Both the position numbers and the translations under genes were made by a program. The notes beneath the pieces were generated by a model. It saw only the letters and a program-made list of their open reading frames with translations, had not been told where the DNA came from and did not search any database. From a bacterium (GTDB lineage: Bacteria > UBA8248 > JACPRG01 > G963555815), in NCBI GenBank assembly GCA_965249615.1, contig CBDFMI010000006.1, positions 444,132-508,131 of the forward strand: a DNA stretch of 64,000 nucleotides, read 5' to 3'. Below, piece by piece: positions 7,674 through 43,317 of this stretch (position 1 is its first letter; the number at the start of each line of letters is the position of its first letter).

Positions 7674-9794
7674 GTGGACGGTTTACAGTCAGATACTGGG
7701 AGCCGCTGGTCTCTTCTGTGGCGGGATTGTTTGGGGTGGCTATCGGTCTCAGCAGGTCTGGGTGTATTTGAATCGATCCTTCTGGCCTTCCAAAGACCTG
7801 AGATCAATCCCTTCGCAGTGATCGATCTTTTGGATCTCCTGAGCTCCGCCATCGTTTTAAATTCCTTGATGATTCTCCCAGTCTCAGCGGGCCATTTCCT
7901 CCTGTGTTTTCGCCTTTTGGGAGATCGCGACCGTCGGGCGCAGGGTCGAAACACGTTTTTATTCCACCTCGTTGTGTTCCTCGCGTTGGTGTTCACCATT
8001 TTTATTGGCCGAAGACTCATCTTCACGATCCCTGCAGCCATCGTGATCGCCACGGCCCTTTGGTTCGGACTGAAATATACACCCAGGCGGCTGGCCCGTA
8101 TGTTCGGGCTGGGTGTCACCGTTTTCCTGCTGGCCTTTCTTTCCTACGAATTTGCACGGCCATTTTATCCCCTAAAAAATCTCCGCGAGGTCCGGAACGA
8201 AGACAGCGCACTTCCAAATGTGCTCCTGGTGCTTGTGGATACGTTGCGGGCGGATCGGCTCTCCACATACGGCTATTCCAGGGAGACGTCCCCGTTCATT
8301 TCAAAGCTCGCGGGAGAGGGGGCGAAATTTACGAATTTCTATGCGAACGCGAGTTGGACTCCGCCGGCGACGGCAACGATTTTGACCGGCGTATTTCCCT
8401 CAATCCATGGAATAAACGGAACGTCGTTCCAAAAGAAGGCTCCGGTTAAGACGCTTTGTGAGGTTCTGCGCGGACACGGATACAACACGGCTGCGTTTGT
8501 CGCGAACCCATGGATCGGTGAGCGCAGTGGATTACTCGAAGGATGCGACTATCACAGCCCGATGTGGAACCCCTTTAGGCGAAACCACCAGAGACGTGAT
8601 GTCCCAGATCCATCCGCACCCTCTTTCCTGATCCTCGCCAGCGAGCCGATGCTGGAAAACATTTTCGTCTGGAGAAAGTTTGTTTTTTTGCCACGCATTT
8701 TCGTTTGGAATAGATTTGTTTCTTTGTCCGATAGGGTTGTAACCAGCCTTTTCATAATTGACAGGAAGAAGAGCCACCTCCTCCGCGGGGCATTTCGCCT
8801 AATTCAGGAGGTTGATGGAGATGGGAATGATAACCGAGAGGAGATAGAAAATCGCATTCCTCGTGCGGATGAGTTTACACATGGAGTCTTGAACTACGTC
8901 GATTATGTGGCATCGGTGGAAAACCATGATGGCCAAAGGACGAAATTCTTTATCTATCTGCACTATGTAGAACCGCATAGCCCGTATCAGTCACCTGGGC
9001 GCTATGGTCGCCTGTTTGATCCCCACTATCCGGATGAGCGTGTGACTGAGTATCCGGATCCGTCTGAAAATGGGACCACGCCGGAATTGCCGGATGCGCA
9101 GCTGCACAACCTTCAAGCACAATACGACGGAGAGACCCGTTACTTTGATGACAACTTCCAGTTCCTTTTCTCGAATCTAGAGGAAAGGGGGTTCGTGGAT
9201 AACACGTTGATTGTCTTTGTTTCTGACCATGGAGAGGAATTCTACGAGCATCGGGGATTTGGGCATGGGGGAACAGTCTTTGAGGAAGTGCTCAGAGTGC
9301 CTCCCATTTTATGGTACCCCGGCAGCTTGCCCGGCGGACTTGAGGTGGAGGAGCCGGGATCCCAGGTGGATCTAATGCCAACGATTATGGAGGTCCTCGG
9401 TCTTCCGGGGCCCGGGGATTTCCAGGGAAGAAGCTTGTTGCCGCTCATATATGGGGAGGAGAGCGGGGCGGCCATCTATGGAGAAAGCTCACGCGAGCCC
9501 CCTGGCCGCGAGCTTAGTTCTCATCGGTTTTTAGTTCATGGCCGATATAAATTTATCAACCAGGAAAAACCTGAGACAGAGCATGAAAAATTTCTTTTTG
9601 ACCTTCAGTTGGATCCGAACGAGCAAGAAAACATCTACGGCTCTGAAAAAAAGATAGCGGAAGAAATGGAGTTGCTACTGGAAAAATTCGTCACATTGGT
9701 CGAGAATGACCCCCGGTACTCTGAAAACCCAGAGGCCATCGGAGTTGACCCGGAACTGGAGGAGCGTCTGAAGGCTCTCGGATACGTTGAATGA
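7674..9794 (+). CDS. Membrane-anchored sulfatase-family (alkaline-phosphatase superfamily) protein, LtaS/EptA-like architecture, paralogue 1
   Basis: About 5 N-terminal TM helices, then VLLVLVDTLRADRLSTYGY, WTPPATATILTGVFPSIHG and VSDHGEEFYEH. Start codon is uncertain (GTG 7674). Confidence 0.8.
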   Translation: MDGLQSDTGSRWSLLWRDCLGWLSVSAGLGVFESILLAFQRPEINPFAVIDLLDLLSSAIVLNSLMILPVSAGHFLLCFRLLGDRDRRAQGRNTFLFHLVVFLALVFTIFIGRRLIFTIPAAIVIATALWFGLKYTPRRLARMFGLGVTVFLLAFLSYEFARPFYPLKNLREVRNEDSALPNVLLVLVDTLRADRLSTYGYSRETSPFISKLAGEGAKFTNFYANASWTPPATATILTGVFPSIHGINGTSFQKKAPVKTLCEVLRGHGYNTAAFVANPWIGERSGLLEGCDYHSPMWNPFRRNHQRRDVPDPSAPSFLILASEPMLENIFVWRKFVFLPRIFVWNRFVSLSDRVVTSLFIIDRKKSHLLRGAFRLIQEVDGDGNDNREEIENRIPRADEFTHGVLNYVDYVASVENHDGQRTKFFIYLHYVEPHSPYQSPGRYGRLFDPHYPDERVTEYPDPSENGTTPELPDAQLHNLQAQYDGETRYFDDNFQFLFSNLEERGFVDNTLIVFVSDHGEEFYEHRGFGHGGTVFEEVLRVPPILWYPGSLPGGLEVEEPGSQVDLMPTIMEVLGLPGPGDFQGRSLLPLIYGEESGAAIYGESSREPPGRELSSHRFLVHGRYKFINQEKPETEHEKFLFDLQLDPNEQENIYGSEKKIAEEMELLLEKFVTLVENDPRYSENPEAIGVDPELEERLKALGYVE

Positions 9795-9831
9795 AGGTTA
9801 AAGGGCTCGACTCGGACTTGGTGCACACAGC

Positions 9832-12039
9832 ATGAACCGCTGGTCCTTGCTTCGGCGAGATTTTTTGGGATGGCTGGCGGTTTCGGCAGGTCTGGGCGTA
9901 TTTGAATCGGTCTTGCTGGCCTTCCAAAGACCTAAGATCAACCCCTTCGCGGCCATCGATCTGGTCGCTCTTTCGATTTCTGCCGTCCTTTTCAACTCCC
10001 TGATGGTTCTACCCGTTTCACTCGGTCATTTTTTCTTGTATTGGCGGTTTTCTGGAGGCCACGACCATCAGGCGCAGGGCCGAAACGTCTTTTTATTTCA
10101 CCTCGTCGTGTTCCTCGCGGTTGCGTTCATCATTTTTATTGGCCGAAGGCTCATCCTTACGGTTCCTGCAACTATTCTGATGTCCGCGGGCCTTTGGTTC
10201 GGCCTTAGATATCTTTCGACAAGGATTGTTCGGGCATTTTCAGTAGGTGCCGGTATTTTCCTCTTGGCACTTTTTTCGTATGAGTCCCTCCGCTTGCCGC
10301 TCTATATCACAGACCCCGATTATGAACTATGGAAGTCGGAAGTTACGTTATGGGAGGAGGAAGACCCGCGATGTGAGACGCACCTGCGCTTCTCTACTCT
10401 CAACGGCGACCTGGGGTCCCTCGATTCCAGGAACTGTTCCAATTACTACCTGGAGAAGTTCAGGCAGGTAGAAGCGGAGCACCAATCACTGCCGAACGTT
10501 ATTCTGGTTCTTGTCGATACGCTTCGCCCCGATCACCTGTCCACATACGGCTATCATCGAGAGACATCGCCTTTTATTTCGAAGCTGGCGGCGGAGGGGC
10601 TAAAATTTACCAATTTCTATGCGAACGGTGCGTGGACCCCGCCGACGACTTCAACGCTTCTAACCGGCGTTTTTCCCGCAATCCATGGGATATATGAGCC
10701 TGGCGGGCAAAAGAGGGAGACAGTCAAAGTCATTTCTGAGACTCTCCGTGACTACGGCTATAACACAGCCGCCTTTATCGCGAATCCACTGATTACGAAA
10801 AGCACTGGGTTGCTGGACGGATATGATTATTTCTACCGAAAACCCAGGCCGCCGGTGTCGCGGCCGTCGTTGAGGCTCGCGAGCTTCCCCAGTCCGGAGA
10901 ACCTCCTCATATGGGTGAAGTTTCTGTCTCTGTCAGATAAGGTGGTCCAGGCGTTTCGGGGTTTTGATGGGAAGAAAAACGATCTTTTAGTTCAGATATT
11001 TCCCTTCAGCCGTGAATTAGAGCCAGAAAGACAGGAAAGGATACGGGAGGAATTCCGTTTCCCCCCCGCGGAAGTCGACATGGATAAAGAACTCGACTTC
11101 CCCCGGGCGAATGAAATGGCGAACGCGGTGCTGAATTACGTGGATTACGCCTTGGCAGGTCCTGACTTCGACGTTGTGCAAACGAAATTCTTCCTCTTTC
11201 TCCACGACATGGGTCCCCACGATCCTTATAAGTTGCCCACGCCATATGACGTCCTCTTCGACCCTGGGCGCCAGGATAGGCCGGAGGCCGAAGGGGCAGT
11301 CCGGTTTTTGGATGAGTCGCCGCCTGCGTCAGTTCGGGAGAGATTGGCCCATGATTTGCCGCTGTATGACGGAGCAATCCGTTTCTTCGATGATAATTTT
11401 CAGGTGCTCTTTTCGGAACTCAAGGAACGGGGGCTTTTGGACAATACCCTAGTGATCTTGCTGGCAGATCATGGGGAAGAATTCTATGAGCACGGTGAAA
11501 TTGGACATGGGGAGAAGGTCTTTGAGGAAATTGTCAGGATCCCCCTTGTCTTGTGGTATCCAGGGGAATTGCCCTAAGGGGTCGAGGTGAAGGAGTTCGG
11601 GTCGCAGGTGGATATAATACCCACGATCGTGGATGTTCTGGATCTGCCAGTACCAGAGGGGTTGCAGGGAAAGAGCCTCTTGCCCGCGATATCCGGGAGG
11701 GGGCTAGAGAGGGTTGTGTACGGAGAAAACTTGCGTGGTTCGCAGGATTTATCGTCGGGAGATATGTTGCGATTTTTGATCCATGGCCGATATAAACTCA
11801 TCACCATGGGGACACCTAAGACAGTGCGGGAAAAATTGCTCTTTGACCTCCAGTCGGACCCGCATGAGAAAAACAACATCTGCGGGTCTGAGAAAAAGAT
11901 AGCGGAAGAAATGGAATCGCTGCTAGAGGATTTCATCGCATTGGTGAAGAAGGACCCTAGGTATTCTGAAGACCTAGAGGCCGTTGAAGTGGACCCGGAA
12001 CTGCAGAAGCGTCTAAAGGCTCTCGGATACATTGAATGA
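9832..12039 (+). pseudogene. Paralogue 2 of the membrane-anchored sulfatase-family protein, interrupted by an in-frame TAA (11575-11577)
   Basis: Track ORFs 9832-11577 and 11587-12039 share one frame and together align along the whole of paralogue 1: ...WYPGELP*GVEVKEFGSQVDIIPT versus ...WYPGSLPGGLEVEEPGSQVDLMPT. Confidence 0.75.
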
Positions 12040-12129
12040 GGGTTAAAAAGTTCGCGTCGATCCTGGTGAAAAAGCAGGCTCACCTTTGGCCCGCGATCGG
12101 GTTTTTAGTTTGAGAGGACGTGGGTAAGA

Positions 12130-19168: not shown

Positions 19169-19208
19169 TCGGTCCGCCTGTCTGGCTGAAAGAACCGCCA
19201 GAAAAAGC

Positions 19209-19236
19209 TTGACGGGGAAAAATGGGTGTATATACT
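19209..19236 (+). promoter_or_regulatory. Strong sigma70-like promoter (TTGACG-N16-TATACT); copy A of a 40-nt conserved element
   Basis: TTGACG at 19209-19214 and TATACT at 19231-19236. The 40-nt block 19201-19240 matches 35889-35928 at 35/40 positions (hand count). Confidence 0.5.
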
Positions 19237-19305
19237 CGTTGTATCGGAAGAGACTGAAGGAGACGGAATTTCAGTCCGAGAGCGGGGCCACGCAATGGAG
19301 CAGAA

Positions 19306-20034
19306 ATGGCCCAGGAGGGGGTGAACATGGGCGAGCTTTCTTCCACGGCGAAGCGTGCTGTCTCAGCCTACGGCGGGGCCGATCGCTGGCGAAACGCACG
19401 GGCCATCGAGGCTGTGGTCTCGGCCAACGGCTTGGGCTTCCGCTTGAAGTGGCGGCGTCCTGCCCCAAATGCGGACGTCCGGGTGGAGATAGCGGAACCG
19501 GTCGTCAGGATGGATCTCAAAGATAGCGAGGGGCACATCGGCGTGATGGACCGGGGAGACGTGAGGATTGAGACGTCTTCTGGTAAAGTCGTGGCCTCAC
19601 GGCCGAATCCAGAACACCTGTTTCCCTACGGGCGAAGGGCTTTTTGGTGGGATCGGCTCGACCAGATCTACTTCTCAGGGTACGCCTTGTGGAACTACAT
19701 GACGCTTCCGGCCCTGTTGCTCAGGGACGACATCCAATGGGAGGAGCTCAGAGAGGGGAGCCTTCAGGCGCGTTTTCCCAAACATCTTCCAACACATTGC
19801 GAGGTGCAGCAGTTTCATTTCGAGCCGGCCACAGGGCTCCTGCGCCAGCTCGACTACACGGCGGAGGCCTTCGGAAACTGGGCCAAGGCCGCGAACGTGG
19901 TTTTGGAGCACGGCGAATCGGAGGGGATTCCTTATCCTTCACTGCGTCGGGTTACCCCGCGCCGAGGGGACGGCAGCCCGCGCAAGGGGCCGCTCCTCGT
20001 CGGGATCGAATTCCATCGATTCCGGCTCGTCTAG
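19306..20034 (+). CDS. Hypothetical protein (no signal peptide, no recognised domain)
   Basis: Long ORF with codon usage like its neighbours, located downstream of the promoter-like element. It ends 8 nt before the convergent cysC stop. Start may be 19306 or 19327. Confidence 0.5.
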   Translation: MAQEGVNMGELSSTAKRAVSAYGGADRWRNARAIEAVVSANGLGFRLKWRRPAPNADVRVEIAEPVVRMDLKDSEGHIGVMDRGDVRIETSSGKVVASRPNPEHLFPYGRRAFWWDRLDQIYFSGYALWNYMTLPALLLRDDIQWEELREGSLQARFPKHLPTHCEVQQFHFEPATGLLRQLDYTAEAFGNWAKAANVVLEHGESEGIPYPSLRRVTPRRGDGSPRKGPLLVGIEFHRFRLV

Positions 20035-20042
20035 TCCCCAAT

Positions 20043-20675
20043 CTAGTCGATATATCCCAAGCCCTTCAGTTTGGCCTGGATGGTCTGCTTCTCTTCCTCG
20101 GAATAGACGTAATCGGCGGGCTCGATGTAACCGAATTCTTCCAGCCGAGAGAGAATATGCGCGACAGATTCCTTAACCGACTCTTTGTCCGTCTCGACGG
20201 TTATCTCGGGGTTGAGGGGCTCTTCATAGGGGTCTGAGACCCCCGTAAAATTCTTAATCTCACCCTTAAAAGCTTTCGCGTACATCCCTTTCACGTCCCG
20301 TTCTGCGCAGACCTCAACAGGGCATTTGACGTAGAGCTCCACGAAGCGCCCCACCTCGGCCCTTACGGCGTCTCGGATGGCCCGGTAGGGGGCGATGACC
20401 GCCGCCATGTTGGGAACCCCGTTTCGGGTCAAGAGGTGACAGAGGTATCCCAGGCGAATGATGTGCTTATCGCGGTCCTCTTTGGAGAAGCCGAGGTCGG
20501 CGCTGAGATTGCGGCGCACTTCGTCGCCGTCGAAGACCTCGACGTTCGGAAAACCGCGCTCGTGAAGTTTCTCTCCGAGAAGAACGGCAATCGTGCTTTT
20601 CCCTGAGCAGGGAAGGCCTGTGAACCAGACCGTGAACCCTCTGGGTTTATCTTTGATCACTTTCTCTCTCCTCAA
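20043..20675 (-). CDS. cysC: Adenylylsulfate (APS) kinase with C-terminal extension
   Basis: GFTVWFTGLPCSGKSTIA P-loop and FDGDEVRRNLSADLGFSKEDRDKHIIRLGY. An extra tail of about 35 aa ends in LKGLGYID. Confidence 0.9.
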   Translation of the reverse strand: MRREKVIKDKPRGFTVWFTGLPCSGKSTIAVLLGEKLHERGFPNVEVFDGDEVRRNLSADLGFSKEDRDKHIIRLGYLCHLLTRNGVPNMAAVIAPYRAIRDAVRAEVGRFVELYVKCPVEVCAERDVKGMYAKAFKGEIKNFTGVSDPYEEPLNPEITVETDKESVKESVAHILSRLEEFGYIEPADYVYSEEEKQTIQAKLKGLGYID

Positions 20676-31830: not shown

Positions 31831-32622
31831 TCACTCTCGATGGGCCATGGGCCGGGCGGCGGGCGGGATATGGCTTTCTACCCATTGGAGCCCGAACCCA
31901 TCCCCGCGAACGGGATACTCCTTTCGGAGGGGATGGCCCTCCCAGTCGTCCGGGAGGAGGATCCGTCTGAGGTCGGGGTGGCCCTCGAAATCAATCCCCA
32001 CCATGTCGTAGGCCTCTCGTTCGAGCCAGTTGGCCGTCCGCCAGATGTCAGACACGGTCGGGGCCGTCTCCGCCTCCCCAAGGCGGACCTTCAGCCGAAG
32101 GCGCCCCCTTCGCTCCAAGCCATAGAGGTGATAGACCACCTCGAAGGGGCGATCCCGGTCCGGGTAGTGGACACCGCAGAGGTCCGACAGGAAATTGAAA
32201 TGGTGTTGGTCTTTGAGGTGAAGACAAAGTGGGTGGATCTGGTCCCGCCGGACGACGACGGTGAGTTCGTCCTCTTTTCCCATGAAGGCGGAGACCTCTT
32301 CCACCCCTTCCCCTGAAAAGGCGCGAATGGCCTTCACCAGGGGGAGTTCCTCGAGATTTTCGCCGGGCTTTTTGTCCGCTTTGACCGGTGGCGGGGCCTT
32401 TTTTTGTTCCGAGGCCGGGGGTTTCTCAGCCGGAGGCGCTTTGGGCTCTTCGGATTCAGCCGTTGGAGGGGAAGCTTCGGGAGCGGCTGACTCTTCCCCC
32501 TCGGGCTTTTTGTCCGCCTTGACCGGCGGTGAGGCCTCTTTTTGTTCCGAGGCCGGGGGTTTCTCAGCCGAGGACGCTTCGGGCTCCTCGGGCTCAGCGG
32601 GGGCGGAGTTCTCTTCGGTCAC
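31831..32622 (-). CDS. nuoC: NADH-quinone oxidoreductase subunit C with about 95-aa Pro/Glu/Lys/Ala-rich repeated N-terminal extension
   Basis: The C-terminal 165 aa match NuoC ([14 protein letters not shown]..., [36 protein letters not shown]). GTG start lies after GGAGAG. Confidence 0.9.
32364..32590 (-). repeat. In-frame direct repeat (two copies of about 90 nt, 138-nt period) encoding the NuoC N-terminal extension
   Basis: Copies at 32364-32453 and 32502-32590 align without gaps and with few mismatches. They encode EKPPASEQK(E/K)A(S/P)PPVKADKKP. Confidence 0.85.
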
Positions 32623-35751: not shown

Positions 35752-35853
35752 ATGGACTTGGATTTTCTCTTCGTCGTCGGCGGGATTATCATCCTGGCGG
35801 GGATGGCCTTTATTGTCCTCCTCGGCATCCTTTGGGTATTTCGCCGGGGATAA
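35752..35853 (+). CDS. Possible 33-aa single-TM small protein
   Basis: MDLDFLFVVGGIIILAGMAFIVLLGILWVFRRG, a hydrophobic helix with an RR anchor. The RBS is weak and the ORF is below the track cutoff. Confidence 0.2.
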   Translation: MDLDFLFVVGGIIILAGMAFIVLLGILWVFRRG

Positions 35854-35896
35854 CCCTCACTTTTCCCATCCCACAGAAAAATCCCGCAGAAAAAAC

Positions 35897-35924
35897 TTGA
35901 CGAGGCAAAATAGGTGTATATACT
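35897..35924 (+). promoter_or_regulatory. Strong sigma70-like promoter (TTGACG-N16-TATACT); copy B of the 40-nt conserved element
   Basis: TTGACG at 35897-35902 and TATACT at 35919-35924, about 60 nt upstream of the SDR gene. Confidence 0.5.
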
Positions 35925-35982
35925 CATTTAGATAACACTGGAGACACACGAGCACCTAAACCGATGAGGAGGGGTCGTTGAA

Positions 35983-36711
35983 ATGAGACTAGAGGGGGAA
36001 AGCGTATTGGTCACCGGCGCCAATCGCGGCATAGGCGCAGCACTCGTTAACGCCTTGCTTGGCAAAGGTGTGCGAAAAGTCTATGCCGCCGCAAGGAATC
36101 CCGACAGCCTGCCGGATTTTGGAGATAGCCGTGTTGTACCTATAGCTATCGATATCACTAACACCGAGCAGGTCAAACAAGCGGCCAAGACTGCGGCCGA
36201 TGTCGAGTTACTCATCAACAACGCAGGCGTCGCCGCCTTCACGAGCCTGCTGGATGGTCCCATCGACCTGATAAAGCGAGACATGGACACCAACTACTAC
36301 GGCACTCTGGATATGGTTCGACGCTTTGTGCCCGTGTTGGAAACCAAGACCGATGCGGCAATTGTAAATGTGGTAACCATTGGCGCCTTTGTGAATTTCC
36401 CGATGTTGGGAGGCTATTGCACGTCTAAGTCGGCACTGTTCTCACTTTCCCAGGGAATCCGAATCGAACTCGCGGCTAAGAGCATTGCGATCCACACCGT
36501 TAATCCCGGGCCAATCGACACTGACATGGCCAAGGATTTTCAGGCAGAGAAAACCAGTCCGGAGGTGACCGCAGAGAACACTCTGACAGCGCTGGAAAGC
36601 GGTGAGGTCGATATTTTCCCTGACGCCGGTAGCCAGGGGATGATTAAGGTATGGAAAAGCGACTATCGTGCCCTCGAGCAAATGGTAGCCGAAATGCATA
36701 ACGCGACTTAG
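35983..36711 (+). CDS. Short-chain dehydrogenase/reductase (SDR) family oxidoreductase
   Basis: VLVTGANRGIGAAL (TGxxxGIG), NNAG and S...YCTSK catalytic motif. Visibly more A/T-rich codon third positions than the surrounding genes. Confidence 0.85.
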   Translation: MRLEGESVLVTGANRGIGAALVNALLGKGVRKVYAAARNPDSLPDFGDSRVVPIAIDITNTEQVKQAAKTAADVELLINNAGVAAFTSLLDGPIDLIKRDMDTNYYGTLDMVRRFVPVLETKTDAAIVNVVTIGAFVNFPMLGGYCTSKSALFSLSQGIRIELAAKSIAIHTVNPGPIDTDMAKDFQAEKTSPEVTAENTLTALESGEVDIFPDAGSQGMIKVWKSDYRALEQMVAEMHNAT

Positions 36712-38230: not shown

Positions 38231-40297
38231 TTATTTTGGCCCTTCGACCAGCTTCTCTGGGAGTCTTTCATTGTGGTCGGGCGAGAGCCCGAGGTCCTTG
38301 AGGAGTTTGGCGCTGTAGAAGGCGAGCTCCCAAGATACCGCGGGCCTGATCTGAGAAGGCGTGAGCCCCTCAGCAAACGTCAGGTCAGCCCCCTTGAGGT
38401 TGGCCAGGAGAAGATCGGCCCCTTCGAGGTTAGCCCCGCGCAGGTCGGCCCCTTGGAGGTTGGCCTGGGTCAGTACGGCCCCTTGGAGGTTGGCCTGGAG
38501 CAGGTTGGCCCTCTGGAGGTTGGCCTGGAGCAGGTTGGCCCCCTGGAGGTTGGCGGAAAACAGGACGACTTCCTGGAGATCAGCTCCCTGGAGGTCGCTC
38601 CTCTGGAGGTCGGCCTCGTGGAGGAGGGCCCCTTGAAGTTTTGCCCCCTGCAAGTCGGCATTGACTAGGAAGGAACGAAACCCTGCGGCGTATCGCAGGT
38701 CTCTTCCCCTGAGACGGGCCCCTTTCACCAGACTAAACTCATCTTCGTTCTGTCCCGTCCAGTTTGGGGGCTTGGTTGAAACCTCCACCTCGCTGAAGTC
38801 CGCGAAGGGGCTGAGGCCAATGAGCGCGAAGGCGCCTGGCACCCATCTCCGGATGCTGATCGGTTTCAGGTCGGGGGCGATAGGCGTGGTGGCTTGCCGT
38901 ATGAAGCGAGCAGGAGGGGCAAAGTAGGCGGGGGGGACGCCGTCAATCCCCCCGAGGGCGAACAAAGAAAAGATGGCGCCGATACCGAGGGCCATTGCCA
39001 GGGGCACGTAAATCCTCCCTAAGGCCGATATGTATGGTCCCCAGACCCTCCATCTTCCCTTGAGACGAACCGGGATTAACTCCTCGCCGCGAAGCGTTCT
39101 CCTCGCGAGCTGGATGAACCAAAGGGCGCAAAAGGCTGAAAGGGCCAGAAGGGCTGAGTGAAACCAGGTCCCGGCCCATTCGTGGCGGGGGAGATATCTC
39201 GTCCAGAAGAGAAGGAGCGTTGCCGGGACGACCCACCAGCCAAGGACGAAGGAGATATGCACCTGCAGGCGAGAAAGTGGCGGGCGGTTTTTCCTCAACA
39301 GCGGGAAATGAGCCCGCGCAAGACAATTCAGGAGCCAGGGGTAGGCCCTCTTGTCGATGGGCCTCCCGTCGGGGAAGACAGCGGGAAGATCCGCCAGACC
39401 TTCCCACAGGCGAAGTAGGTGGACATGAAAATAGATGTAGTGGCCAAGAATGAGGAGGGGCACCGCTAAGTAGAACCAGACGATGGGGATCGCGGTCCCG
39501 AGGATGGGAAGGGGCGAGGAAGCGGAGTTGGTCAGGAGCCGGGTGTCTGTCGTCGTGGCGATAGTCAGCAGGGCATAGAGGCATGCCAGCAGCATCGCGA
39601 GGAAGATCTTTCGCGCGCTTTTGGACGCCTCCTCAACAATTCTCAGAGGCTCAAACCTGTGAAGGTCACCCGGGAGCGCCACTGCGTCCAGGTTGGCCCC
39701 GCCAAGCTTCACCCCTGAGAAGTTGACGACCCCCTGGAGGCTGGTCCCCTTCAGGTTTGACCCCCGGAAGTCCGTATCAGTCAGGCTGGCCCCGTGGAGG
39801 TCGGCGTGATCGAGATTGGCCTCGCGGAGGAGGGCCCCTTGAAGCTCGGCCTCGTTCAGGCTGGCCCTCTGGAGCTTGGCCCTCCTCAGACTGGCCCCTT
39901 CAAGGTTGGCCCCGGTCAGGTTGGCTTCCTTGAGGTTGACGTCCTCCAGATTCGCCCCCTTGAGGTTAGCCTTCACTAGGTTGGCCTCCTTGAGGTTGGC
40001 TTCAGACAAGCTCGCCCCTTCGAGGTTGGCCTTAAGCAGATTGGCCTCTTGAAGGTTAGCGCCACTCAGATTGGCCAGTCGGAGATCGGTGTCGGAAAGG
40101 TTGCGTCGTCGGAGGTCAGTGTTCGAGAGATCGGCTTTTTGCCCCTCCTTTTTTGATCCCTGCCACTTCCGGTGCGCCTCAAGGATTTCTGTCAGCTGCT
40201 CCTTGGTGAGCGTCCGAAGCGCGGAAATTTCTTGGGGGATCATTTCAGGTTTGTCGGTTTCCTGACTCATCTTCCCTTTACCCGTAATGGGCCGCAC
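38231..40297 (-). CDS. Pentapeptide-repeat protein with central multi-TM domain (repeat - TM - repeat architecture)
   Basis: N-terminal and C-terminal runs of A(D/N)L(x)x pentapeptides (ANLQEANLLKANLEGASL...) flank about 6 hydrophobic helices. Start is GTG 40297 or ATG 40270. Confidence 0.85.
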   Translation of the reverse strand: MRPITGKGKMSQETDKPEMIPQEISALRTLTKEQLTEILEAHRKWQGSKKEGQKADLSNTDLRRRNLSDTDLRLANLSGANLQEANLLKANLEGASLSEANLKEANLVKANLKGANLEDVNLKEANLTGANLEGASLRRAKLQRASLNEAELQGALLREANLDHADLHGASLTDTDFRGSNLKGTSLQGVVNFSGVKLGGANLDAVALPGDLHRFEPLRIVEEASKSARKIFLAMLLACLYALLTIATTTDTRLLTNSASSPLPILGTAIPIVWFYLAVPLLILGHYIYFHVHLLRLWEGLADLPAVFPDGRPIDKRAYPWLLNCLARAHFPLLRKNRPPLSRLQVHISFVLGWWVVPATLLLFWTRYLPRHEWAGTWFHSALLALSAFCALWFIQLARRTLRGEELIPVRLKGRWRVWGPYISALGRIYVPLAMALGIGAIFSLFALGGIDGVPPAYFAPPARFIRQATTPIAPDLKPISIRRWVPGAFALIGLSPFADFSEVEVSTKPPNWTGQNEDEFSLVKGARLRGRDLRYAAGFRSFLVNADLQGAKLQGALLHEADLQRSDLQGADLQEVVLFSANLQGANLLQANLQRANLLQANLQGAVLTQANLQGADLRGANLEGADLLLANLKGADLTFAEGLTPSQIRPAVSWELAFYSAKLLKDLGLSPDHNERLPEKLVEGPK
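38387..38566 (-). repeat. 30-nt tandem repeat array (6 units) inside the pentapeptide-repeat coding region
   Basis: Units start at 38387, 38417, 38447, 38477, 38507 and 38537 (GGCCCCTTGGAGGTTGGCCTGGAGCAGGTT-like). Each encodes two pentapeptides. Confidence 0.9.
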
Positions 40298-40941: not shown

Positions 40942-43317
40942 TTGATCTGGATTCGCCTCTTTCTCTTCTTCGTTTCGCTCAGCTTCCTTTTTCCTGGTCT
41001 CGGCGGGGCGCAGGATGTCTTTCCCACCCCCAAGGGTCTAGAGGCAGCTCAAAAATTTTGGATCGACATCTTCACTAAGCACGGCAGGAATCAAGTCGTT
41101 ATCCACGATGCCGATCACCTGGACGTGGTCTATGAAGTCCTCCAGCTTGATGGGCGCGGCCCCTCCGGCAAGGTCAGCCCCAAACGGCGGGAGGCCGGGA
41201 TTCGTCGAGCCAAGAGCCGCTACCGTGAGCTCATCGACTCCTGGAGGAAGAACTCGCCCGACCCCTCTCAGCTGTCGAGCTCCCATAGGCGGATCTATCT
41301 CGCGTTGACGCGCCCGGAGCGCCGCTACAGCCTGCAGGAGGCCCGAAAGAACATTCGCGGGCAACTGGGACTTAAAGAGAGGTTCCGCGAGGGCCTTATC
41401 CGGTCCGGACTTTATCTGAACCGCATGAAGGAGATCTTTCGCCAGCACGGCCTGCCGGACGATCTCATCGCCATCCCCCACGTGGAGTCCTCCTTTCAGA
41501 TCCACGCCCTCTCCAGATACGGGGCTGCGGGGATCTGGCAGTTCACGCGGGACACGGGCCGAAGGTTTCTCACCATCAATTACGCCATCGATGAGCGCCG
41601 GGACCCTATTCTCGCCACTGAAGCGGCGGCAAAACTCCTGAAGGCGAACTTTGCGGATCTGGGGAGCTGGCCCCTCGCCGTGACGGCCTATAACCATGGC
41701 CTCGGAGGGATGAGGAGAGCCGTCCGCACGGTGGGGACCAAAGACCTTCCCACCATTATCCGACGCTACAGGGGGCGGATCTTTGGCTTTGCCTCGAAGA
41801 ATTTTTACGCCGAATTTCTGGCGGCAAGAGAGGTCAACAATCACCCAGAAAAGTATTTCGGCGGGGTTCCTTTTGCGTCTCCCCTGAAGTTCGATGTTTT
41901 CGAAATTCCTGACTACATTGGGATGGAGACCGTCACCCGGCACCTTGGCCTGGGGCAGGAGGAGATCCGAGCGCTGAACCCGGCCCTTCGCCGCCCTATC
42001 CTGGATGGAAGACGGTATCTCCCGAAAGGCTATCCCCTTCGGGTGCCTCCAGGGAGTGGAGAAGAGATCGCCAGGGCCTACGCCGCCATCCCTTCCGACG
42101 AAAAGTCGAGAAGCCAACAGCGCGACCAGTGGTATCGAGTCCGGCGGGGAGATACGCTCATCAAGATCGCCCGCCTCTTCGGGACTTCCCTCAACGCCCT
42201 CGTGGCGGTCAACGATCTCCGAGACCCGGACCGCATCCGTAAAGGGGCGGTCCTCGCCATCCCCCCAGCGCGCGGGTCCAGAGAACAAGGGCGCCCCGGG
42301 TCGTATCAAGTTCAAAGGGGAGACACGCTCGGCAAGATCGCCCGCCTCTTTGGGACCTCCGTCAACGCCCTCATGGCCGCCAACAACCTTCGGAACCCGA
42401 ACCACGTTCGTAAAGGGACGGTTCTGACCGTTCCCTCGACGGAGGCGTCCATCAAGCAGGAGCGTCCTCAGTCGTATCGAGTGCGAAGGGGAGATACGCT
42501 GACCGAGATCGCCCGCCTCTTTGGGACCTCCGTCAAGGCCCTGATGGCCGCCAACGGCCTTCGGAACGCGGACCACGTCCGCAAAGGGGTGGTCCTCGCC
42601 ATCCCCGGGGTGGAGAAGACGACGCTGGCCCGCCTCGAACAGGAGGAGCCGAAACCGAGCCCTCTAAAACCTCCTGAGAAACCCGAGCAAGAGGAGATTG
42701 AGGCTGTCCAAATTGACATTGTCCAAGAGGACATCCCTGAGAAAATCCCTGACGAGGTCTTGAACGGGGAAACCGTCCCCTCAGACGGGAGCCCGGCGGC
42801 ACCCCCGGCCGAGGAAGAGGCCCCCCTTCCTTCTCCTCTCGCCATCTCCGAGGTCAGATTTCCAGAAGCCTCCAGGGACCGAGGCTGGATCATCGTTGAG
42901 CCGGCGGAGACCCTGGGCCATTTTGCCGATTGGCTTGAGGTGGAGACCCAGGCCCTCAGACACCTGAACAGGCTCAGGCGCGGGAGGGCCATTCAGGTCG
43001 GACAGCGGATCTCACTCGCCTTTCAAAAAGTGGGCGTGGAGGTGTTCGAGGCAAGACGGCTTGAGTACCACAGGGGGCTAGAAGAGGACTTCTTTGAGGT
43101 CTACCAGGTCGAGGGAACCGAGCTCCACGCCCTCCAGACCGGGGAGAATATCTGGGCCCTCGCCCGTGGACGCTATGGGGTTCCCTTCTGGCTCGTGGCC
43201 AGATATAATCCTGACAAAATCCTTTCCCGGTTGGGCACAGGGGAGCGGGTGGTCATTCCCATTGTCGGGTCCCGGGCGGCTGAACCGCTTCAAGCGGAGA
43301 CCGGTATCGAGCCCTAA
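40942..43317 (+). CDS. Membrane-bound lytic murein transglycosylase D-like protein (SLT domain plus 3 clear and about 2 degenerate LysM domains)
   Basis: Signal peptide, then VESSFQ...AAGIWQFTRDTG (SLT catalytic Glu region). Three YRVRRGDTLxxIARLFGTSxxALxAxNxLR...KGxVLxIP LysM repeats follow. Confidence 0.85.
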   Translation: MIWIRLFLFFVSLSFLFPGLGGAQDVFPTPKGLEAAQKFWIDIFTKHGRNQVVIHDADHLDVVYEVLQLDGRGPSGKVSPKRREAGIRRAKSRYRELIDSWRKNSPDPSQLSSSHRRIYLALTRPERRYSLQEARKNIRGQLGLKERFREGLIRSGLYLNRMKEIFRQHGLPDDLIAIPHVESSFQIHALSRYGAAGIWQFTRDTGRRFLTINYAIDERRDPILATEAAAKLLKANFADLGSWPLAVTAYNHGLGGMRRAVRTVGTKDLPTIIRRYRGRIFGFASKNFYAEFLAAREVNNHPEKYFGGVPFASPLKFDVFEIPDYIGMETVTRHLGLGQEEIRALNPALRRPILDGRRYLPKGYPLRVPPGSGEEIARAYAAIPSDEKSRSQQRDQWYRVRRGDTLIKIARLFGTSLNALVAVNDLRDPDRIRKGAVLAIPPARGSREQGRPGSYQVQRGDTLGKIARLFGTSVNALMAANNLRNPNHVRKGTVLTVPSTEASIKQERPQSYRVRRGDTLTEIARLFGTSVKALMAANGLRNADHVRKGVVLAIPGVEKTTLARLEQEEPKPSPLKPPEKPEQEEIEAVQIDIVQEDIPEKIPDEVLNGETVPSDGSPAAPPAEEEAPLPSPLAISEVRFPEASRDRGWIIVEPAETLGHFADWLEVETQALRHLNRLRRGRAIQVGQRISLAFQKVGVEVFEARRLEYHRGLEEDFFEVYQVEGTELHALQTGENIWALARGRYGVPFWLVARYNPDKILSRLGTGERVVIPIVGSRAAEPLQAETGIEP

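What the first reader, a model, noticed from the sequence alone, without database searches (positions are those of the whole stretch)
19201..19240. A 40-nt promoter-like element occurs twice (19201-19240 and 35889-35928; 35/40 identical, ungapped)
Copy A is gAAAAAgCTTGACGgGGaAAAATgGGTGTATATACTCgTT and copy B is gAAAAAaCTTGACGaGGcAAAATaGGTGTATATACTCaTT. Both contain TTGACG-N16-TATACT, but the identity extends through the spacer and the A-rich upstream flank. That exceeds what a sigma70 promoter alone requires in a GC-rich genome. Copy A precedes a hypothetical gene (19306-20034) wedged between the AP-superfamily operon and cysC. Copy B precedes an A/T-richer SDR gene. Inference: a shared operator/promoter cassette giving co-regulation, or a small mobile promoter module.
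Basis: seen in the sequence. Interest (0 to 1): 0.5.

Follow-up and report, generated by a model that had tools for sequence, protein, structure and literature searches.

The report
Redox-repressor operator built into two promoters
The two near-identical 40-base stretches are ordinary bacterial promoters that carry the binding site of a widespread oxidation-sensing repressor (MosR-type MarR family), so the two downstream genes are probably switched on together under oxidative stress.

Summary
19201-19240 and 35889-35928 match at 35 of 40 positions, and the similarity extends to 53 nt. These are the only two copies in the window. Each copy is a sigma70-type promoter (TTGACG, 16-nt spacer, TATACT) with an A-tract upstream. 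The near-palindrome GTGTATATACTC lies over the -10 hexamer.

Scans of public genomes and metagenomes show that this cassette is the standard promoter of one MarR subfamily in many phyla. Of 74 such genes found by protein similarity alone, 68 carry it directly upstream, and most of those transcripts appear leaderless.

The closest solved relative of that subfamily is M. tuberculosis MosR (E about 1e-25). MosR binds TGT-N4-ACA, senses H2O2 through Cys10 and Cys12, and controls the short-chain dehydrogenase gene rv1050. The subfamily keeps the CxC pair and the DNA-reading residues.

A weight matrix built from 63 of these promoters scores the window copies at 36 and 40 bits. The next independent site in the window scores -1.

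The window copies are therefore most likely regulon promoters, driving a LolA-fold protein and an SDR, under a MosR-like repressor. That repressor is not encoded in the window and I could not locate it. This is a new member of a known kind, of moderate interest.

The parts
19188..19240 (+). Copy A: the full conserved promoter-operator cassette (53-nt block shared with copy B)
   Evidence: D18, 83% over 53 nt.. Weight-matrix score 35.8 bits for the 52-mer starting at 19196.
19202..19206 (+). Copy A: upstream A-tract, UP-element-like. It matches the aAAAAa consensus found 2-3 nt before the -35 in MosR-like gene promoters.
   Evidence: Sequence. Consensus of 63 promoters.
19209..19214 (+). Copy A: -35 hexamer TTGACG
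19223..19240 (+). Copy A: operator, 18-mer TGGGTGTATATACTCGTT. Its core GTGTATATACTC (19226-19237) matches 11 of 12 positions of the palindrome GTGTATATACAC, which has the form TGT-N4-ACA.
   Evidence: The right arm CTCGTT also occurs in a real MosR-like gene promoter (L089).
19231..19236 (+). Copy A: -10 hexamer TATACT, inside the operator. The predicted transcription start is near 19243 (an A).
   Evidence: The position of the start is inferred from leaderless MosR-like genes, whose start codon lies 5-9 nt after this hexamer in 41 of 64 promoters.
19327..20034 (+). Target gene A: a 235-aa conserved protein with no Pfam or NCBIfam family and a predicted LolA/LolB-superfamily fold. An alternative start at 19306 would give 242 aa. 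The ribosome-binding site AGGAGGGGG favours 19327.
35876..35928 (+). Copy B: the full conserved promoter-operator cassette
   Evidence: D18.. Weight-matrix score 40.4 bits for the 52-mer starting at 35884.
35890..35895 (+). Copy B: upstream A-tract
   Evidence: Sequence. Consensus.
35897..35902 (+). Copy B: -35 hexamer TTGACG
35911..35928 (+). Copy B: operator, 18-mer TAGGTGTATATACTCATT, with core GTGTATATACTC at 35914-35925
   Evidence: The right arm CTCATT also occurs in MosR-like gene promoters (L064, L082, L098).
35919..35924 (+). Copy B: -10 hexamer TATACT. The predicted transcription start is near 35931 (a G).
35983..36711 (+). Target gene B: a 242-aa short-chain dehydrogenase/reductase (adh_short; NCBIfam PRK08264.1-4). 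Its GC content is lower than that of its neighbours.

Best explanation
Each copy is a strong sigma70-type promoter: an A-tract, TTGACG at -35, a 16-nt spacer and TATACT at -10. An operator for a MosR-like, thiol-based redox-sensing MarR-family repressor is built into it. The near-palindrome (T)AGG-TGT-ATAT-ACT-C covers the -10 hexamer. A bound repressor dimer would therefore block RNA polymerase. By analogy with M. tuberculosis MosR, oxidants would close a disulfide between the two N-terminal cysteines (CxC). The repressor would then leave the DNA, and the two genes (a cytoplasmic LolA-fold protein and an SDR oxidoreductase) would be transcribed together.

Shown here: the sequence architecture; its membership of a promoter-operator class linked across phyla to MosR-like genes; and the conservation in that protein family of MosR's DNA-reading residues and cysteine pair.

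Inferred: that the source genome encodes such a repressor, that it binds these two sites, where transcription starts, and that oxidants are the inducing signal.
For: 1. A scan of 185,579 species genomes with CTTGAC-N11-GGTGTATATACT gave 15 loci. In at least 6 of them, from Blastocatellia, Methylomirabilales, Gammaproteobacteria, Dadabacteria and an unclassified MAG, the match lies directly upstream of one MarR subfamily gene.

2. The reverse test started from protein similarity only. It returned 80 metagenomic loci encoding that subfamily. Of the 74 with enough upstream DNA, 68 carry the GTATATAC core inside a TTGAC / TATAC(T/A) promoter just upstream. A random 280-nt stretch would contain this 8-mer far less than 1% of the time.

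3. A weight matrix from 63 unique promoters of this class scores the window copies at 40.4 and 35.8 bits. The training set ranges from a minimum of 17.3 to a median of 52.2. The next independent site in the window scores -1.1, and the window mean is -67. The copies share 30-32 of 40 positions with promoters from other organisms.

4. In 41 of 64 unique promoters the regulator's start codon lies 5-9 nt after the -10 hexamer. This leaderless arrangement indicates that TATACT is a working -10.

5. The subfamily's closest solved relative is MosR, PDB 4fx0/4fx4 (E 4.6e-25 and 1.8e-24). MosR binds TGT-N4-ACA through R70, T71, T72, R75 and N76 (PMC7145548). The motif DRTTLTRN is invariant in the alignment of six subfamily members, and the window core is TGT-ATAT-ACT.

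6. The CxC pair aligns with MosR Cys10 and Cys12. It is present in 67 of 75 unique family members.

7. MosR controls rv1050, a short-chain dehydrogenase (PMC11351531). In the metagenomic loci a second operator (GTGTATATACAC or GTGTAGTTACAC) precedes SDR genes directly downstream of the regulator in L022, L023, L065, L066, L076 and L083. Window copy B likewise drives an SDR.

8. Both copies are kept in a syntenic relative whose copy-A gene product is 94% identical at the protein level.
Against: No MosR-like or other MarR gene lies in the 64-kb window. None of the top 120 of 2,474 family clusters sits on the probable source contig or on the relative's contig. The cognate regulator of this genome is therefore unverified.

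The right arm of both window operators departs from the palindrome: ACT-C-GTT and ACT-C-ATT instead of ACA-C or CCTA. The same arms do occur in real promoters of the family.

The only relative with these loci is too close for phylogenetic footprinting.

More distant homologues of the LolA-fold gene (L017-L021) and of the SDR (L104-L106) lack the element. Regulon membership is therefore specific to this lineage.

There are no expression, transcription-start or binding data.
Confidence: 0.78

Rival explanations
1. The copies are two strong constitutive promoters that look alike only because one was recently copied from the other, or both from a third. No dedicated repressor acts on them, and the palindrome is a by-product of an AT-rich -10 region.
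For: The A and B copies share some bases that the family consensus does not require: G at the sixth position of the -35, GG in the spacer, and CAG before the A-tract. This hints at common descent within the genome. No regulator gene was located.
Against: The same cassette, including the flanking AATAGG arm, recurs upstream of one MarR subfamily across phyla, in 68 of 74 cases. A perfect palindrome of the same core recurs at a second site that lacks a TTGACA -35. The core matches the TGT-N4-ACA motif bound by the structural homologue MosR. Descent alone cannot explain 30-32 of 40 matches to promoters in unrelated organisms.
Confidence: 0.1
2. The element is a small mobile or repetitive element (MITE or REP-like, or a portable promoter module) that happens to lie upstream of genes.
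For: Two dispersed copies are 83-88% identical in otherwise unrelated intergenic DNA. The SDR gene behind copy B has lower GC content. Its nearest non-self homologues are only 75% identical, and the few named ones are gammaproteobacterial. This is compatible with a gene that acquired its promoter secondarily.
Against: There are only two copies in 64 kb, even when mismatches are allowed. No terminal inverted repeats or flanking duplications are present. No longer repeat surrounds them. Both copies have the same orientation and lie at promoter distance from a start codon. The genome-collection scan found the pattern once per genome, not in multi-copy bursts.
Confidence: 0.05
3. The palindrome is the operator of a different transcription factor. 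One candidate is a NiaR-type repressor, whose type I sites also have a TGT-N4-ACA core. Another is an unrelated winged-helix protein. Under this reading the MosR-like genes elsewhere are merely frequent targets of that factor.
For: A TGT-N4-ACA core is reported for NiaR type I sites (PMC2330245). The regulator in the source genome is unidentified.
Against: NiaR is described for the Bacillus/Clostridium group, Fusobacteria and Thermotogales, and it controls NAD genes. Here the motif follows one MarR subfamily in Acidobacteriota, Methylomirabilota, Gammaproteobacteria and Dadabacteria. The downstream genes are SDRs, 4Fe-4S proteins, hydrolases and glyoxalase-like proteins, not NAD genes. Autoregulation by the adjacent MarR is the simpler reading, and MosR's crystal complex shows this family reading that motif.
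Confidence: 0.05

Closest known systems
M. tuberculosis MosR (Rv1049) with its target rv1050: an oxidation-sensing MarR repressor (PDB 4FX0, 4FX4)
   Same: The regulators linked to this cassette are MosR's closest sequence relatives among solved structures (E about 1e-25). They keep the Cys10/Cys12-equivalent CxC pair and the recognition-helix residues R-T-T-x-x-R-N. The operator core is TGT-N4-ACA, as in the MosR-DNA complex. A short-chain dehydrogenase is a target both in M. tuberculosis and in the window.
   Different: The window holds only target promoters, with no regulator next to them. Identity to MosR is modest (about 90 bits), so this is a sister group in other phyla rather than an orthologue. 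The M. tuberculosis operator sequence itself could not be retrieved for comparison. Many regulators of this family appear to be made from leaderless transcripts. Here the operator sits directly on a consensus-like -10 hexamer.
OhrR, MgrA and SarZ: thiol-based peroxide-sensing MarR repressors
   Same: They share the logic of a MarR dimer on a pseudo-palindrome overlapping a promoter, released by cysteine oxidation, with autoregulation and control of detoxifying enzymes.
   Different: The sensing chemistry differs: a single Cys, or an inter-subunit Cys22-Cys127' disulfide in OhrR, against an intrachain CxC disulfide in MosR (PMC5823404). The NCBIfam OhrR model matches only weakly, well below its cutoff.
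Generic sigma70 promoter with an UP-like A-tract
   Same: It matches 10 of 12 consensus positions with a 16-nt spacer and an upstream A-tract, and it lies 50-85 nt before a start codon preceded by a ribosome-binding site.
   Different: Conservation of the spacer and of the bases flanking the -10 goes beyond what a promoter needs. The embedded operator accounts for it.
NiaR (YrxA) type I operator
   Same: It has a TGT-N4-ACA core.
   Different: It belongs to a different regulator family, a different taxonomic range and a different regulon (NAD synthesis). No link to these loci was found.

Membership tests
sigma70-type promoter | -35 and -10 hexamers close to TTGACA and TATAAT, separated by 16-18 nt | tested here: met
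   TTGACG, 16 nt, TATACT: a 10 of 12 match at both copies.
sigma70-type promoter | Lies upstream of a gene, in the same orientation, in non-coding DNA | tested here: met
   Copy A lies 33 nt after the stop of the upstream gene and about 90 nt before the start codon at 19327. Copy B lies about 58 nt before the start codon at 35983.
sigma70-type promoter | A transcription start 6-8 nt downstream of the -10 hexamer | not testable with these tools
   No RNA data are available. There is indirect support: in 41 of 64 homologous promoters the regulator's start codon sits 5-9 nt after the hexamer, which is a leaderless arrangement.
MosR-type (MarR family) operator | A palindrome with a TGT-N4-ACA core | tested here: met
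   GTGTATATACTC at 19226-19237 and 35914-35925 matches 11 of 12 positions of GTGTATATACAC. The one departure (ACT for ACA) creates the -10 hexamer TATACT and is the majority form in the family's own promoters. The motif definition comes from PMC7145548.
MosR-type (MarR family) operator | The operator class co-occurs with genes for MosR-like regulators (autoregulation) | tested here: met
   From DNA to protein: at least 6 of 15 pattern hits lie upstream of such genes. From protein to DNA: 68 of 74 loci carry the operator.
MosR-type (MarR family) operator | A cognate MosR-like regulator is encoded in the same genome | tested here: inconclusive
   None is present in the 64-kb window (tblastn; hmmsearch). 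None of the top 120 family clusters lies on the 881-kb or 272-kb contig.
MosR-type (MarR family) operator | The regulator binds the site and is released by oxidation of the CxC pair | not testable with these tools
   This needs EMSA or footprinting with and without oxidant. The CxC pair and the DNA-contact residues are conserved in the family.
Miniature mobile element or dispersed repeat (MITE/REP) | Terminal inverted repeats or target-site duplication, with many copies placed independently of gene starts | tested here: not met
   No flanking inverted repeats. Only two copies. The similarity ends at the 53-nt block.
Structured RNA leader or riboswitch (Rfam) | A match to a curated covariance model | tested here: not met
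   No Rfam family reached its gathering score anywhere in the window. No tRNA or tmRNA was found.

The most novel reading that the evidence does not exclude
The cassette (A-tract, TTGACA, 11 nt, TAGG-TGT-ATAT-ACT-CCTA, often followed by a leaderless ATG) may be an undescribed signature of a very large family of MosR-like CxC redox sensors. The family has at least 2,474 clusters at 90% identity and spans many phyla. Its regulons could then be read directly from sequence. In the window's lineage, the regulon seems to have grown by placing copies of the regulator's own promoter-operator in front of unrelated genes. One of these is an SDR that may have been acquired horizontally, and whose orthologues elsewhere answer to LysR or TetR neighbours.
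Probability: 0.4. Interest if true: 0.5.

Novelty: new member of a known kind. Interest (0 to 1): 0.35.

Why it matters
It turns an anonymous repeat into a testable regulatory prediction. Two genes of unknown role, a cytoplasmic LolA-fold protein and an SDR, are predicted to be induced together by oxidants through a MosR-type repressor.

The operator and promoter consensus recovered here is aAAAAa-nn-TTGACA-N11-TAGGTGTATATACTCCTA, with a second site type GTGTA-NN-TACAC. It gives a simple sequence handle for mapping the regulons of a large and almost unstudied family of thiol-based redox sensors in uncultured phyla such as Methylomirabilota, Acidobacteriota, Dadabacteria and Gammaproteobacteria. 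The only characterised member of that family is in M. tuberculosis.

The mechanism itself, a MarR repressor on a palindrome over the -10, is textbook.

Tried and rejected
- Exact-protein look-ups of both window proteins and of their 100%-identical cluster representative found no contig. Only cluster sizes showed that the window probably comes from an 881,271-bp NCBI/ENA contig.
- The genome-collection scan did not return the source genome, so it is not a GTDB species representative.
- Searching for the cognate regulator in the window failed. So did looking among the 120 best family clusters for one on the source or relative contig.
- Phylogenetic footprinting failed because the only relative that keeps the loci (L016, L102) is nearly identical across the intergenic regions.
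- More distant homologues of gene A (L017-L021) and of the SDR (L104-L106) lack the element, so they gave no footprint.
- The original MosR paper (PMC3488046) is not held. No supplement with the 4FX4 DNA sequence was available. The M. tuberculosis operator sequence therefore could not be compared base by base.
- Literature searches for the core sequence with MarR or operator returned nothing relevant.
- Rfam, tRNA, inverted-repeat and weak-site scans were negative.
- My first spacing pattern used the wrong number of N and missed both copies. I discarded it.

Full report
**Observation**

The two stretches read exactly as the finding quotes them. They match at 35 of 40 positions without gaps. 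The repeat finder extends the pair to 53 nt at 83% identity, 19188-19240 against 35876-35928 (family D18). A 30-nt consensus pattern with up to three mismatches hits only these two places, and none of 100 shuffles produced a hit. Both copies contain TTGACG, a 16-nt spacer and TATACT, which is 10 of 12 consensus positions.

An alignment of the two loci, together with their counterparts in a close relative, shows that similarity between A and B ends at the edges of the block. No inverted repeats flank either copy. No Rfam family or tRNA is present anywhere in the window.

- Copy A follows a Phosphodiest-family gene and precedes an ORF with no family. cysC lies convergent just beyond it.
- Copy B follows a DsbA-like gene and a 33-codon hydrophobic ORF, and precedes an adh_short SDR.
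- The SDR gene has a GC content of about 0.53, against about 0.60 in the surroundings.

**What the element is**

I scanned one genome for each of 185,579 species with CTTGAC-N11-GGTGTATATACT. This gave 15 loci, about the number expected by chance for 18 fixed bases (my estimate). The hits were clearly not random. Most shared further bases outside the pattern, forming AATAGGTGTATATACTCCTA. That sequence is a near-palindrome, TAGG-w-GTATATAC-w-CCTA.

In at least six of the loci the match sits immediately upstream of the same kind of gene, a 150-170-aa MarR-family protein. These loci are:
- L005, Blastocatellia
- L006, an unclassified MAG
- L008, Methylomirabilales
- L009 and L014, Gammaproteobacteria
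- L012, Dadabacteria

I then ran the reverse test. Starting from an alignment of these proteins only (A1), a metagenome scan returned 80 loci encoding relatives 50-91% identical to the L008 protein. Of the 74 with at least 150 nt of upstream DNA, 68 carry the GTATATAC core inside a TTGAC / TATAC(T/A) promoter directly upstream. In the 412 kb of these loci the core occurs almost nowhere except at that position and at one second position described below.

The consensus of 63 unique promoters is aAAAAa-nn-TTGACAag-nnn-aaAATAGGTGTATATACTCcTAttatg.

A log-odds matrix built from those 63 sequences scores the window copies at 40.4 and 35.8 bits. The training set has a minimum of 17.3 and a median of 52.2. 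The best independent site elsewhere in the window scores -1.1, and the window mean is -67 with a standard deviation of 14. The copies share 30-32 of 40 positions with promoters of unrelated organisms. Class membership therefore explains most of the 35 of 40 identity between them. The remaining shared bases (TTGACG, GG in the spacer) suggest a lineage-specific flavour or descent from one promoter.

**Evidence that TATACT is a working -10**

In 41 of 64 unique promoters of the class, the regulator's first in-frame start codon lies 5-9 nt after the hexamer, most often 6 nt. This is the arrangement of leaderless mRNAs, whose start codon is at the transcription start. By the same spacing, the window promoters should start transcription near 19243 and 35931. 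That would give leaders of about 84 and 52 nt, each ending in a good ribosome-binding site. This is inference, because no RNA data exist.

**Who binds it**

The linked proteins match Pfam MarR models, and NCBI names them only as 'MarR family'. Among solved structures their closest relative by far is 4fx0/4fx4, M. tuberculosis MosR (Rv1049), at E 4.6e-25 and 1.8e-24. The next hits are at about 1e-9.

The literature held in the library states the following:
- MosR binds a palindromic TGT-N4-ACA motif. It contacts DNA through Arg70, Thr71, Thr72, Arg75 and Asn76 of the recognition helix, plus Arg95 and Lys97 of the wing (PMC7145548).
- MosR senses oxidants through an intrachain Cys10-Cys12 disulfide and then leaves the DNA (PMC5823404; PMC11351531).
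- Its target rv1050 encodes a short-chain dehydrogenase.

In the HMMER alignment the family's CxC pair aligns with the CAC of MosR. The residue numbering of the recognition helix shows a constant offset of 4 between the PDB index and the published numbering, so this CAC is Cys10/Cys12 (my count). D-R-T-T-L-T-R-N is invariant in the alignment of six members. It was also part of the search pattern used, so its 70 of 75 frequency there is biased. The CxC pair was not part of any search pattern. It is present in 67 of 75 unique proteins, at a fixed distance from the helix in 62 of them.

The window core GTGTATATACTC is TGT-ATAT-ACT. It has the MosR-type geometry with one arm changed by one base, and that change creates the -10 hexamer.

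**A second site type**

A second operator type in the other genomes supports the reading that the palindrome, not the promoter, is what the protein recognises. Just after the regulator's stop codon, many loci have a T-run followed by ATAC-GTGTATATACAC-AAT. This is a perfect 12-bp palindrome with no TTGACA -35. In the closest relatives of L008 the centre varies (GTGTAGTTACAC, GTGTAGCTACAC, GTGTATTTACAC) while the TGT and ACA arms stay fixed.

The genes behind these second sites are:
- a protein of about 447 aa with 4Fe-4S motifs
- adh_short SDRs (L022, L023, L065, L066, L076, L083)
- an alpha/beta hydrolase
- an enoyl-CoA hydratase
- a glyoxalase-like protein
- a luciferase-domain protein

SDRs are therefore recurrent targets, as in M. 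tuberculosis and as at window copy B.

**The two target genes**

The SDR belongs to NCBIfam PRK08264.1-4. Apart from the source and its close relative, its nearest homologues are only about 75% identical, and the few named ones are gammaproteobacterial. Three orthologues at about 70% identity sit next to LysR or TetR regulators, one of them together with a glutathione S-transferase gene, and they lack the operator. Combined with its lower GC content, this suggests that the gene was recruited, perhaps after transfer, into the MosR-type regulon of this lineage. That is inference.

Gene A has 215 homologues and no annotation. An AlphaFold model built from 36 sequences is confident (pLDDT 94.6). 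It resembles LolA/LolB-superfamily half-barrels that bind hydrophobic ligands (3buu, E 1e-6, TM 0.52). I see no obvious signal peptide at its N-terminus. One distant homologue lies beside HxlR, DinB and glyoxalase genes (L017), which is a stress and detoxification neighbourhood.

**What is missing**

No MarR-like gene exists in the 64 kb. Cluster look-ups indicate that the window comes from an 881,271-bp NCBI/ENA contig, and that a relative (94% identical for the gene A protein) is ERZ25071923 contig_13. Both cassettes are conserved in that relative. However, none of the 120 best of 2,474 family clusters lies on either contig, and I could not read the rest of the genome. Binding, the transcription starts and the oxidant response are untested.

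**Rivals**

- *Recent promoter duplication without a repressor.* This cannot explain the cross-phylum link to one regulator family, nor the sites that carry only the palindrome.
- *A mobile element.* This is contradicted by the copy number, the lack of inverted termini and the fixed orientation.
- *A different factor such as NiaR.* NiaR type I sites share a TGT-N4-ACA core, but this reading fits neither the taxa nor the genes involved.

**Verdict**

The element is a new instance of a known mechanism, a MarR/MosR-type repressor over the -10. As far as the searchable literature shows, its operator consensus and its wide distribution have not been written down. Interest is moderate.

Noticed in passing
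L022-L101, for example L032 2740-2800, L023 860-900, and L008 on the reverse strand about 30 nt after the marR stop codon: Many MosR-like loci carry a second, promoter-independent operator right after the regulator's stop codon. It is a run of 7-8 T followed by ATAC-GTGTATATACAC-AAT, with centre variants AGTT, AGCT and ATTT. It lies ahead of the next gene, which may be a 4Fe-4S protein, an SDR, a hydrolase or others. How this site is used (as an internal promoter or as a roadblock) is unclear.
   Followed up: partly
window 19327-20034: The 'hypothetical' target gene A gives a very confident model (pLDDT 94.6) with a LolA/LolB-superfamily half-barrel fold, and I see no obvious signal peptide at its N-terminus. 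It belongs to a family of at least 215 unannotated proteins. One homologue (L017) sits among HxlR, DinB and glyoxalase genes.
   Followed up: partly
window 35983-36711: The SDR gene has a GC content of about 0.53 in a 0.60 background. Its closest non-self homologues are about 75% identical, and the few named ones are gammaproteobacterial. Orthologues elsewhere sit next to LysR or TetR regulators. The gene may have been transferred horizontally and then rewired.
   Followed up: partly
window 35752-35853: A 33-codon ORF encodes a very hydrophobic peptide (MDLDFLFVVGGIIILAGMAFIVLLGILWVFRRG). It lies between the DsbA-like gene and copy B, and a gene is also called at this position in the relative (L102 9770-9871).
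   Followed up: no
L001 6191-6219 (Candidatus Gracilibacteria MAG): One of the pattern hits that is not next to a MarR gene lies about 20 nt upstream of an Fe/Mn superoxide dismutase gene (Sod_Fe_N, E 6e-23). Its ORF appears cut at 66 aa. I did not examine why. The match could be chance or a real redox-regulon site.
   Followed up: no
L018-L021, about 60-90 nt upstream of the gene A homologue: More distant homologues of gene A carry a different repeated motif upstream, GGTACAATAGTGGTACAGTGTACC. This suggests that another regulator controls the same gene family in that lineage.
   Followed up: no
L051, L052, L057 and L060 (L058 and L059 also lacked a detectable CxC): In these loci the MosR-like protein has SCVSF in place of CxC, so only one cysteine remains, yet the same promoter-operator is present. 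These may be variants with one-cysteine sensing or without redox sensing.
   Followed up: no
window 31831-32622 (minus strand): NuoC (Complex1_30kDa) has an N-terminal extension of about 90 aa rich in Pro, Glu and Lys. The extension contains an internal duplication, which is the 97-nt direct repeat at 32364-32460 and 32502-32598 (88% identical).
   Followed up: no
window 38231-40297 (minus strand), 42105-42617 and 7700-12068: Three other repeat families in the window are ordinary. The first is the pentapeptide-repeat gene (15- and 30-nt periodicity). The second is three tandem 171-nt units encoding LysM-like repeats; the syntenic gene in the relative (L102) is an SLT/LysM protein. The third is a pair of units about 2.2 kb apart that are 77-79% identical and look like tandem paralogues.
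   Followed up: no
L016 10705-12218 compared with window 20034-20043: The close relative has two extra small minus-strand genes (207 and 95 aa, no Pfam family) between gene A and cysC. They are absent from the window, so this is an insertion or deletion difference right next to the regulated gene.
   Followed up: no
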